IMG/VR virus record: IMGVR_UViG_3300029305_011318
From: a virus
Taxonomy: Duplodnaviria; Heunggongvirae; Uroviricota; Caudoviricetes
Direction: 5' to 3' (one strand)
Length of the DNA: 64,000 nt
A model generated the notes under the pieces. It had not been told where the DNA came from. It saw nothing but the letters and a program-made list of their open reading frames with translations, and ran no database searches. The position numbers and the translations under genes were made by a program. Below are positions 28,916 to 29,326 of this stretch, one piece after another. How positions within the stretch are numbered: position 1 is the stretch's first letter; the number at the start of each line of letters is the position of its first letter.

Positions 28916-28990
28916 AAAATTATTATTTGTTTTATATAAAACGAAATAACTATTTGCACATCTTAAAAAAACACTCTCTAACAGCGGTAC

Positions 28991-29172
28991 TTGGGTGGTT
29001 AATCCAAACGGTTATTTTTACATGATTGTCCGTTCAACATGCTTTGGATTTTTTTAATCCTCTTCCTTAAAAGTTTTATATCCTCTGTTATATAGTTAAG
29101 TGTTTTTGATATTTCTTATGGACCTTTTTTATTGGTAGTCTTTAACCACATATATTGGGTAGTGAATCCAAA
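28991..29172. promoter_or_regulatory. Cluster of three related 17-18 bp palindromic sites in the divergent CAP/sigma intergenic region
   Basis: ttgggtggttaatccaaa (28991..29008), ttggtagtctttaaccac (29133..29149), ttgggtagtgaatccaaa (29155..29172). Confidence 0.4.
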
Positions 29173-29197
29173 TAAAATAAGAAATATCTTTATCTAC

Positions 29198-29224
29198 TTT
29201 TATATGGATAAAATTTTGTTGAAA
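29198..29224 (-). promoter_or_regulatory. Box-1 promoter-like motif for the CAP gene transcript
   Basis: ttttatatggataaaattttgttgaaa. Confidence 0.4.
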
Positions 29225-29266
29225 CTTAGAAATTTTGGTTGGATTTTGATATTTATCTTGAATTTA

Positions 29267-29300
29267 TTTTGAAATGGGTAAAAATTTGAACATATAAGAA
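29267..29300 (+). promoter_or_regulatory. Box-1-like motif in + orientation upstream of the sigma factor gene
   Basis: ttttgaaatgggtaaaaatttgaacatataagaa; compare TTTTGAGAAAGTTTTATCCATATAAAT. Confidence 0.4.
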
Positions 29301-29326
29301 TAAGAAAAACTTTCTAAATAATAGAT

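What the first reader, a model, noticed from the sequence alone, without database searches (positions are those of the whole stretch)
28916..29326. Sigma-factor control region with three related 17-18 bp palindromes (TTGGGTrGTnAATCCAA)
The only divergent intergenic region of the element separates the minus-strand CAP gene and the plus-strand sigma factor. It holds sites at 28991..29008, 29133..29149 and 29155..29172, with TTGG...CCAA inverted ends, about 165 and 5 nt apart. This looks like operator organisation for a dimeric repressor at a lysis-lysogeny-type switch. No HTH repressor gene is visible in the window, so the regulator may lie outside it or be a non-HTH protein.
Basis: seen in the sequence. 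Interest (0 to 1): 0.55.

Follow-up and report, generated by a model that had tools for sequence, protein, structure and literature searches.

The report
Repeated palindromes beside a prophage sigma gene
Two nearly identical 17-base palindromes, plus weaker copies of their half-site, really do cluster between a prophage's sigma-factor gene and its neighbour. They are probably docking sites for an unknown regulator, but they lie downstream of a leftward phage promoter rather than on a classic lysis-lysogeny switch, and nothing could be confirmed by comparison with relatives.

Summary
Two of the three reported sites are exact: TTGGGTGGTTAATCCAA (28991-29007) and TTGGGTAGTGAATCCAA (29155-29171). 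The third (29132-29149) keeps only the left half. A 19-bp relative (29044-29062) and a lone half-site (29239-29245) were missed. The pair is not chance: no pair this G+C-rich appeared in 400 shuffled windows, and TTGGRT occurs 6 times against 0.4 expected. The flanking genes are a CAP-domain protein and a sigma-70 family, SigH-like factor, which is the only opposite-strand gene in 74 kb.

New context: about 20 copies of a strand-specific promoter-like motif (TTTTGAGAA-N3-TTT-N2-CCATATAA) precede the leftward genes. One copy (29223-29193) lies in this region and points at CAP, 277-340 nt from its start. Both palindromes therefore lie in its transcribed leader, not between the divergent promoters. 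A partial copy of the motif core precedes the sigma gene.

Best reading (about 0.4): binding sites for an unidentified dimeric DNA-binding regulator. Rivals are RNA-level pairing elements, a relic, or an origin. A CI/Cro-type switch is not supported. No relatives exist in any collection searched, so conservation is untestable. Interest is modest.

The parts
28991..29007 (.). Dyad A: TTGGGTGGTTAATCCAA. Arms TTGGGT/ATCCAA (5 of 6 complementary), 5-bp centre, followed by a conserved A.
   Evidence: non-random
29155..29171 (.). Dyad C: TTGGGTAGTGAATCCAA. Same arms as dyad A; differs only at central positions 7 and 10.
29132..29149 (.). Site B: a degenerate relative. The left half TTGGTAGT matches dyad C's left half apart from one missing G. 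The right half is AACCA, not ATCCAA.
   Evidence: not found at up to 3 mismatches; left half 3 of 5 window occurrences
29044..29062 (.). 19-bp dyad TTGGATT-TTTTT-AATCCTC. Same half-site, but the spacer is 2 bp longer.
29239..29245 (+). Single half-site TTGGATT, lying between the two back-to-back promoter-like cores.
29193..29223 (-). Copy of the phage-wide promoter-like motif, pointing at CAP: TTCAACA (variant of TTTGAGA), then AAATTTTATC, CATATAAA (29206-29199) and AGTAGA. The 18 bases AAATTTTATCCATATAAA are identical to those of the copy at 56896.
   Evidence: (32.4 bits; 20 minus-strand hits, none on the plus strand)
29284..29304 (+). Partial copy of the same motif core (ATTTGAACATATAAGAATAAG), ending 22 nt before the sigma ATG. 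The upstream TTTGAGAA element is missing. TTGAAA (29271-29276) lies 18 nt before TATAAG (manual reading).
   Evidence: second-best plus-strand hit in 64 kb, 12.8 bits; one search read directly
29108..29188 (.). Perfect 12-bp inverted repeat GATATTTCTTAT / ATAAGAAATATC (29108-29119 and 29177-29188). It encloses site B and dyad C, and its right arm abuts the leftward promoter.
   Evidence: I23; each arm unique in the window
28967..29107 (.). Imperfect long-range inverted repeat (28967-28987 with 29082-29107). It encloses dyad A, a CCGTT/AACGG hairpin and the 19-bp dyad. A7 on the plus strand (U7 on the minus strand) lies at 28964-28970.
28905..28915 (.). Separate perfect palindrome GTGAC-G-GTCAC near the CAP start; unique in the window.
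28274..28852 (-). CAP/SCP-domain secreted protein. The likely start is ATG 28852, which has an upstream GAAAGGG and begins a signal-peptide-like N-terminus. The longest ORF starts at GTG 28915.
29327..29902 (+). Sigma-70 family factor with regions 2 and 4; its closest solved relative is SigH. It is the only plus-strand gene in the 74 kb examined.
29899..29946 (.). 20-bp-stem terminator-like hairpin between the convergent sigma gene and the 207-aa gene.

Best explanation
The region holds a cluster of binding sites for one unidentified, probably dimeric, DNA-binding regulator. The cluster consists of two full 17-bp dyads (half-site TTGGRT, 5-bp spacer), a 19-bp variant, a degenerate neighbour and a lone half-site.

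Shown: the sites are real, non-random and unique to this region. A phage-type promoter at 29223-29193 points leftwards, so dyad C starts 27 nt and dyad A 191 nt downstream of its core. The sigma gene has only a partial copy of that promoter core.

Inferred: a regulator bound at dyad C would block or roadblock the leftward transcript early. It could also loop to dyad A, as an auxiliary operator would. The half-site at 29239 lies between the back-to-back cores and could link this control to the sigma promoter. The regulator itself, its effect (repression or activation), and whether the main target is CAP or the sigma gene are all unknown.
For: Exact sites and 16/18 identity, with unrelated flanks. 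Both differences fall in the central 5 bp (hand calculation: 10/136 = 0.07 if the two changes were placed at random). A pair this G+C-rich appeared in 0 of 400 shuffled windows. TTGGRT occurs 6 times against 0.40 expected, P = 4e-6, in both orientations, and this is the densest cluster in the window. The left half TTGG(G)TrGT has 3 of its 5 window occurrences here. The leftward promoter copy scores 32.4 bits, and its 277-340 nt untranslated stretch is an outlier: 17 of the 20 copies end 11-60 nt before a start codon. As RNA hairpins on the strand that has the promoter, the dyads are weak (-2.1 and -1.7 kcal/mol), which favours a DNA-level role. As precedent, SPbeta's master repressor MrpR has a tyrosine-recombinase fold rather than an HTH and binds a repeated 15-bp element (PMC10516654).
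Against: There are only two full copies. No binding protein was identified, and no Pfam-recognisable regulator was found in the prophage part seen. The dyads do not overlap any predicted -35 or -10 element. Start-to-start spacing of 164 bp is about 15.6 helical turns, which is not obviously in phase for looping. No related element exists to test conservation. Complementary half-sites are explained equally well by RNA pairing. About 54 kb of the contig could not be searched for further copies.
Confidence: 0.4

Rival explanations
1. RNA-level element. The TTGGRT and AAUCCAA(A) segments are mutually complementary pieces of a long structured leader, or of a separate non-coding RNA. They would form alternative pairings that control stability, read-through or translation. 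The candidate pairings are the dyad hairpin, an 8-bp AAUCCAAA/UUUGGAUU helix, and the GGAUU/AAUCC hairpin.
For: The leftward promoter is followed by 277-340 nt without a start codon. The other copy with a clearly non-coding downstream stretch (58634) is followed by a long hairpin and a U run. A perfect 12-bp inverted repeat and a long imperfect one close two adjacent domains, each holding one dyad. The first domain begins at the predicted 5' end, and a U7 run follows the second. The 231-nt fold has z = -2.5 (plus strand) and -2.75 (minus strand). Both dyads keep a G:T arm position, which gives G-U pairs and better hairpins on the plus strand (-5.5 and -4.3 kcal/mol).
Against: About 10% of 231-nt windows in this genome reach z of -2.5 or lower. 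On the promoter-supported minus strand the hairpins are weak. No well-supported plus-strand promoter lies upstream of the dyads. There is no canonical terminator in the region and no Rfam match at E up to 10. No homologues exist for a covariation test.
Confidence: 0.25
2. Relic without present function: leftovers of a short local duplication or of decayed promoter copies, not maintained by selection.
For: There are only two full copies and no conservation data. On the minus strand, dyad C plus its flank (TTTGGATTCACTACCCAATATAT) loosely resembles the phage promoter motif with a shorter spacer (one search read directly, compared).
Against: The flanks show no similarity beyond chance, so a duplication would have had to decay everywhere except in the 18 bp. 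Both differences lie in the centre. Extra half-sites are enriched. Chance is excluded at the level of the whole window.
Confidence: 0.15
3. Replication origin or another DNA-processing site, with dyad repeats bound by an initiator in the only divergent, A+T-rich intergenic region.
For: Dyad repeats in an A+T-rich region (GC 0.25) where transcription diverges. Lambda-type origin repeats are also dyad-symmetric (general knowledge, not tested here).
Against: There are only two full repeats, 164 bp apart, not a regularly spaced array. No replication initiator gene is adjacent; the neighbours are CAP, sigma, a RuvC-like gene and a PcfJ-like gene. The cumulative GC skew shows only a small local rise between 26 and 30 kb, where the opposite-strand sigma gene lies.
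Confidence: 0.08
4. Protein-coding: the repeats encode a conserved peptide motif (W-V-V-N-P-N) in two small plus-strand ORFs.
For: All three differences between the extended repeats (positions 7, 10 and 19) fall at third codon positions of one frame and are synonymous. A 46-aa ORF (29132-29272) covers dyac C's frame, that is dyad C.
Against: Dyad A's frame has no start codon after the preceding stop. The 46-aa ORF has a TTG start and no ribosome-binding site, contains the leftward promoter, and matches no Pfam or PHROG family. The repeats lie in different frames.
Confidence: 0.03

Closest known systems
Phage immunity operators (lambda OR/OL 17-bp sites; TP901-1 OR/OL/OD with a distant auxiliary site)
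   Same: Sites of 17 bp with partial two-fold symmetry, conserved arms and a variable centre. More than one copy in a divergent phage intergenic region. One site lies far downstream, like an auxiliary or looping operator. This comparison rests on general knowledge.
   Different: The sites do not overlap the promoter cores. The flanking genes are a CAP-domain protein and a sigma factor, not CI/Cro-like genes. No repressor was identified.
SPbeta repeated element (SPBRE) bound by MrpR
   Same: A large temperate Firmicute-type prophage without a classical CI, controlled through a short repeated DNA element bound by a non-HTH repressor (PMC10516654).
   Different: SPBRE is a 15-bp motif found at about ten promoter regions across the prophage. 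The 17-mers here occur at a single locus. In this phage, the widely repeated element is the promoter-like motif, not the dyads.
Phage-encoded sigma factors of Bacillota phages (SPO1 gp28 and gp34; sporulation-like sigmas)
   Same: A phage gene of the sigma-70 family with regions 2 and 4. Its closest solved relative is SigH. Such genes occur in temperate and lytic phages (PMC9429907).
   Different: The nearest sequence relatives are only about 35% identical. Its promoter specificity is unknown. Linking it to the roughly 20 motif copies is an inference.
Long regulatory 5' leaders of Gram-positive genes (attenuators, T-box, RNA-binding antiterminator targets)
   Same: A long untranslated stretch after a promoter, with mutually exclusive pairings possible.
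   Different: No Rfam family matches, there is no terminator hairpin with a U run after the candidate stems, and no T-box or RAT signature was found.

Membership tests
CI/Cro-type phage immunity (lysis-lysogeny) operator region | Two or more dyad-symmetric sites of 14-18 bp that share a half-site | tested here: met
   Two full 17-bp dyads plus partial relatives
CI/Cro-type phage immunity (lysis-lysogeny) operator region | Sites overlap the -35/-10 elements of divergent promoters | tested here: not met
   The dyads lie 27 and 191 nt downstream of the leftward promoter core and 120-300 bp upstream of the core before sigma. Promoters are predicted, not mapped.
CI/Cro-type phage immunity (lysis-lysogeny) operator region | Flanked by divergently transcribed repressor and antirepressor genes | tested here: not met
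   The flanking genes are CAP (PF00188) and a sigma-70 family factor. No HTH_3/XRE-type hit appears in the prophage part.
CI/Cro-type phage immunity (lysis-lysogeny) operator region | Sites conserved in related phages | not testable with these tools
   Only identical copies of this region were found. No relatives were found in IMG/VR or GTDB genomes.
CI/Cro-type phage immunity (lysis-lysogeny) operator region | Specific binding by a repressor | not testable with these tools
   Needs EMSA, footprinting or ChIP
Sigma-70 family sigma factor (the plus-strand gene) | Region 2 and region 4 both present | tested here: met
   TIGR02937 at 52.9 bits (cut-off 42.9), spanning residues 16-180. PHROG sigma families at E about 1e-15. 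The family profile hits SigH 3mzy at E = 7e-21 and region 2 of SigA/RpoD.
Known structured RNA family (Rfam: riboswitch, T-box, leader, sRNA) | Covariance-model match | tested here: not met
   No meaningful hit at E up to 10 in 27700-29450 on either strand
Intrinsic terminator / attenuator | G+C-rich hairpin directly followed by a U run | tested here: not met
   The terminator scan finds none in 28853-29326. The dyads are followed by A-rich sequence on the plus strand and have no U run on the minus strand.
Invertible promoter segment (inverton) | The two repeats are in inverted orientation | tested here: not met
   The repeats match 15/17 in direct orientation but only 10/17 in inverted orientation (hand comparison of the sequences)
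Iteron-type replication origin | Array of three or more regularly spaced repeats next to an initiator gene | tested here: not met
   Two full copies 164 bp apart, with no replication gene adjacent

The most novel reading that the evidence does not exclude
This region is the master switch of a large (over 120 kb) prophage that lacks a CI-type repressor. A SigH-like phage sigma factor, the only gene on its strand, is transcribed from a crippled copy of the phage's own promoter type, which gives positive feedback. It then turns on the roughly 20 leftward promoters. The TTGGRT site cluster is where an unrecognised, possibly non-HTH, regulator holds that switch off in the lysogen.
Probability: 0.12. 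Interest if true: 0.6.

Novelty: new member of a known kind. Interest (0 to 1): 0.3.

Why it matters
If the dyads are operators, they mark where a very poorly sampled family of large prophages controls its only opposite-strand gene, a sigma factor, and the adjacent secreted CAP protein. The family is known only from a handful of contigs that are identical wherever they overlap this region. The dyads would also serve as bait for finding a regulator that no profile library recognises. The more useful product of this work is the promoter map: two strand-specific motif classes with about 28 copies. That map makes the transcription programme of this phage testable and shows that this locus is wired differently from the rest of the genome.

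Tried and rejected
Comparative route, all negative:
- The sigma protein has no close relative in 5.8 billion proteins. Exhaustive HMMER finds only relatives of about 35% identity.
- The region is base-for-base identical in the two contigs (L001, L002) that could be fetched alongside the window. Other contigs with the neighbouring gene stop inside the sigma gene.
- Scans with the sigma protein and the PcfJ-like protein found nothing in IMG/VR or GTDB genomes.
- The PcfJ-like relatives (33-40% identity) and the relatives of the 207-aa gene (35-37%) lie in non-syntenic contexts without a sigma gene.
- The Enterocloster phages with a 32% sigma homologue carry it co-oriented with its neighbours.
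- The 17-mer pattern gave 42 single, unrelated hits in IMG/VR.
- The promoter motif gave only single chance hits in IMG/VR, GTDB genomes and JGI metagenomes.

Other readings rejected:
- Tandem duplication of a larger unit: flank alignments are no better than shuffles.
- tRNA-like element: neither ARAGORN nor Rfam finds one.
- Inverton: the repeats are direct, not inverted.
- Repressor next to the integrase: those two genes encode membrane proteins.
- Sigma-70-type promoters: the consensus scan found 8 in 28200-30000 against 13 expected from shuffles, so there is no enrichment. The class-1 phage promoter model finds nothing in the region.

Not possible: walking into the other 54 kb of the contig, because only window-encoded proteins can be looked up. 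One look-up found no record.

Full report
WHAT IS IN THE SEQUENCE. The stretch between the minus-strand CAP gene and the plus-strand sigma gene is 411 bp by the longest ORFs. It is 474 bp (28853-29326) if CAP starts at ATG 28852, as the public gene call in one copy of the contig has it. It contains TTGGGTGGTTAATCCAA at 28991-29007 and TTGGGTAGTGAATCCAA at 29155-29171. They are direct repeats, 16/18 identical counting the following A. Compared in inverted orientation they match at only 10 of 17 positions. Each is an imperfect palindrome with arms TTGGGT and ATCCAA, of which 5 of 6 positions are complementary. Both differences lie in the central 5 bp.

The pattern TTGG(G)TrGT occurs five times on both strands of the window, three of them here. 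Two relatives were missed: a 19-bp dyad TTGGATT-N5-AATCCTC at 29044-29062, and a lone TTGGATT at 29239-29245.

IS IT MORE THAN CHANCE? Shuffling only the intergenic region gives a pair of similar palindromic 17-mers in 0.3% of trials. Some such pair within 500 bp then appears in 45% of trials, but all of those are nearly pure A/T. Pairs with at least 4, 5 or 6 G/C appear in 1.25%, 0.5% and 0 of 400 trials, and the observed pair has 7. The G/C cut-off was chosen after seeing the data, but the gap is large. Independently, the hexamer TTGGRT occurs six times in 28985-29250 against 0.40 expected (P = 4e-6), the densest cluster in the window. The sequences flanking the two 17-mers are no more alike than shuffles. 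The repeats are therefore isolated conserved islands, not part of a larger recent duplication.

SURROUNDINGS. The window is the right half of a 128-kb metagenome contig. It ends in a tyrosine integrase (60049-61434), a tRNA-like remnant, and host genes for a TetR regulator and an AcrB pump with higher G+C. The element is therefore an integrated prophage. In the 74 kb I could read, every called gene is on the minus strand except the sigma gene. The sigma assignment is sound. It passes the NCBIfam sigma-70 model over residues 16-180 and hits PHROG sigma families. A profile built from its approximately 35%-identical relatives finds SigH, SigF, and region 2 of SigA/RpoD among solved structures. 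The CAP assignment passes Pfam.

THE KEY NEW CONTEXT. Intergenic k-mer enrichment revealed a phage-wide, strand-specific motif: TTTTGAGAA-N3-TTT-N2-CCATATAA-N3-TA. A weight matrix finds 20 copies on the minus strand and none on the plus strand. Seventeen of the 20 end 11-60 nt before a start codon. It therefore behaves as a promoter, or as a promoter with an attached regulatory site. Its geometry is unusual: TTGAGA or TTGACA lies 12 nt from TATAAA, or 18 nt from a weaker nATAnA. I cannot say which RNA polymerase form reads it. The phage sigma is the obvious candidate, but that is an inference. A second class, CTTTCA-17-TATA(A/G)T preceded by CCG, has 8 minus-strand copies, including those before the two tRNA genes.

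One copy of the first motif lies inside the region under study at 29223-29193 (32.4 bits). Eighteen of its bases are identical to another copy, but its upstream element is a variant, TTCAACA. It points at CAP, whose start is 277-340 nt away. That is an outlier shared with 58634, which is followed by a non-coding hairpin and a U run; the copy at 2043 is a milder exception at 79 nt. Both 17-mers therefore lie in the transcribed leader of this promoter, starting 27 and 191 nt downstream of its core. Before the sigma gene, 29284-29304 is the second-best plus-strand match in 64 kb to the right half of the motif. It ends 22 nt before the ATG and again lacks the TTTGAGAA element. The region thus holds two back-to-back promoter-like cores about 86 bp apart, with the lone TTGGATT between them and the dyads to one side.

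HOW IT MOST LIKELY WORKS. The feature set is 17-bp dyads with identical arms and variable centres, extra half-sites in both orientations, and confinement to one regulatory region. This is what a binding-site cluster for a dimeric DNA-binding protein looks like. I rate that reading at about 0.4. A protein on dyad C would sit just inside the leftward transcript, and dyad A could act as a distant auxiliary site. Which gene is the real target, and whether the sign is positive or negative, are not shown.

The main rival (0.25) is an RNA-level role. The half-sites are complementary to each other. A perfect 12-bp inverted repeat (29108-29119 with 29177-29188) and a long imperfect one close two adjacent domains, each holding a dyad. 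The first domain begins at the predicted 5' end of the leftward transcript. Three results count against it. The folding z-scores (-2.5 and -2.75) are reached by about a tenth of windows in this genome. The dyad hairpins are weak on the promoter-supported strand and stronger on the other. Rfam finds nothing.

A relic (0.15), an origin-like site (0.08) and small ORFs (0.03) are less likely. The ORF idea arises because all differences between the repeats are synonymous in one frame (W-V-V-N-P-N). However, one repeat has no start codon in that frame, and the other ORF contains the leftward promoter.

COMPARISON WITH KNOWN SYSTEMS. The sites resemble lambda-type 17-bp operators and the TP901-1 arrangement with a distant auxiliary site. 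The region nevertheless fails two defining features of an immunity switch: operators overlapping divergent promoters, and flanking repressor genes. A non-HTH regulator remains possible. SPbeta's MrpR is a recombinase-fold repressor that binds a repeated 15-bp element (PMC10516654). In this phage, though, the widely repeated element is the promoter motif, not the dyads. Phage sigma factors related to sporulation sigmas are known from temperate and lytic Bacillota phages (PMC9429907).

LIMITS. Conservation could not be tested. Every collection searched returned only identical copies or unrelated chance hits. About 54 kb of the contig could not be read. All promoters here are predictions.

VERDICT. 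This is a real, non-random pair of palindromes in a real regulatory region. The operator idea is reasonable at the level of site anatomy, but the lysis-lysogeny switch reading is unsupported and the promoter geometry differs from what was assumed. It is an ordinary kind of feature in an unusual and barely sampled phage, so interest is modest.

Noticed in passing
whole window, minus strand (e.g. 59971, 56896, 44036, 37528, 20845, 19008, 13969, 9543, 1251); also L007:12959, 14180, 19593: Phage-wide promoter-like motif TTTTGAGAA-N3-TTT-N2-CCATATAA-N3-TA. There are 20 copies in the window, all on the minus strand, usually 11-60 nt before a start codon. The geometry is odd: TTGAGA is 12 nt from TATAAA, and the 'spacer' block CCATATAAA is strongly conserved. 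It could be the target of the phage sigma, or a promoter fused to a repressor site.
   Followed up: partly
58446, 53025, 45441, 39721, 34394, 31549, 4999, 2013 (minus strand): Second promoter class: CTTTCA-17-(CCG)TATA(A/G)TA, 8 copies. These include the ones directly upstream of tRNA-Gln and tRNA-Met.
   Followed up: partly
57748-58321 (-), 58307-58380 (-), 52667-52740 (-): A full-length ROOL RNA (Rfam RF03087, 294 bits) lies next to, and slightly overlaps, a tRNA-Gln gene. A tRNA-Met gene lies further along. All are inside the prophage.
   Followed up: no
about 58470-58604 (-): The motif copy at 58634 is followed not by a gene but by about 130 nt. That stretch contains a 10-bp long-range stem (GAGGCAGCCG...CGGTTGCCTC) and then CTCTTTTT, so it is a candidate small RNA.
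   Followed up: no
29327-29347: The sigma ORF's ATG (29327) has no ribosome-binding site. A strong one (AAAGAGGTGG, 29330-29339) lies just inside the ORF, 5 nt before an in-frame ATT (29345). Starting there would give an N-terminus matching the length of the homologues, so an ATT start is possible.
   Followed up: partly
60049-64000: Right end of the prophage: a tyrosine integrase, a tRNA-like remnant around 61640-61700 (probable attachment site), then host genes for a TetR regulator (61739-62362) and an AcrB-type pump. G+C is 0.37-0.40 there, against 0.26 for the integrase and 0.25-0.31 for the other phage genes measured.
   Followed up: partly
63201-63217: TTGGTATCGGTTACCAA is the only other TTGG-N9-CCAA palindrome in the window (perfect 6-bp arms). 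It lies inside the host AcrB gene, next to the TetR gene, and is probably a coincidence.
   Followed up: no
29947-30570 (-); L279, L282-L284: The 207-aa gene convergent with the sigma gene has 35-37% homologues in bacterial contigs. There they sit in a fixed cassette: XRE-type HTH, M78 peptidase, an unknown protein, then the homologue. This suggests a defence or immunity-type module rather than a partner of the sigma factor.
   Followed up: partly
58666-59919 (-): The two genes next to the integrase (212 and 200 aa) encode proteins with hydrophobic membrane-spanning stretches, not repressors. They may be exclusion or abortive-infection proteins.
   Followed up: no
28905-28915: A perfect palindrome GTGAC-G-GTCAC, unique in the window, lies 53 nt upstream of the CAP ATG. 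It may be a second, unrelated regulatory site.
   Followed up: no
L007:10655-20654 (left of the window): The prophage also carries an anaerobic ribonucleotide reductase (NrdD) interrupted by an intein with a LAGLIDADG domain, and genes matching SIR2, RNA ligase, an NMN transporter and a HipA-like kinase. Inside the window it also has a tRNA nucleotidyltransferase and a thymidylate synthase.
   Followed up: no
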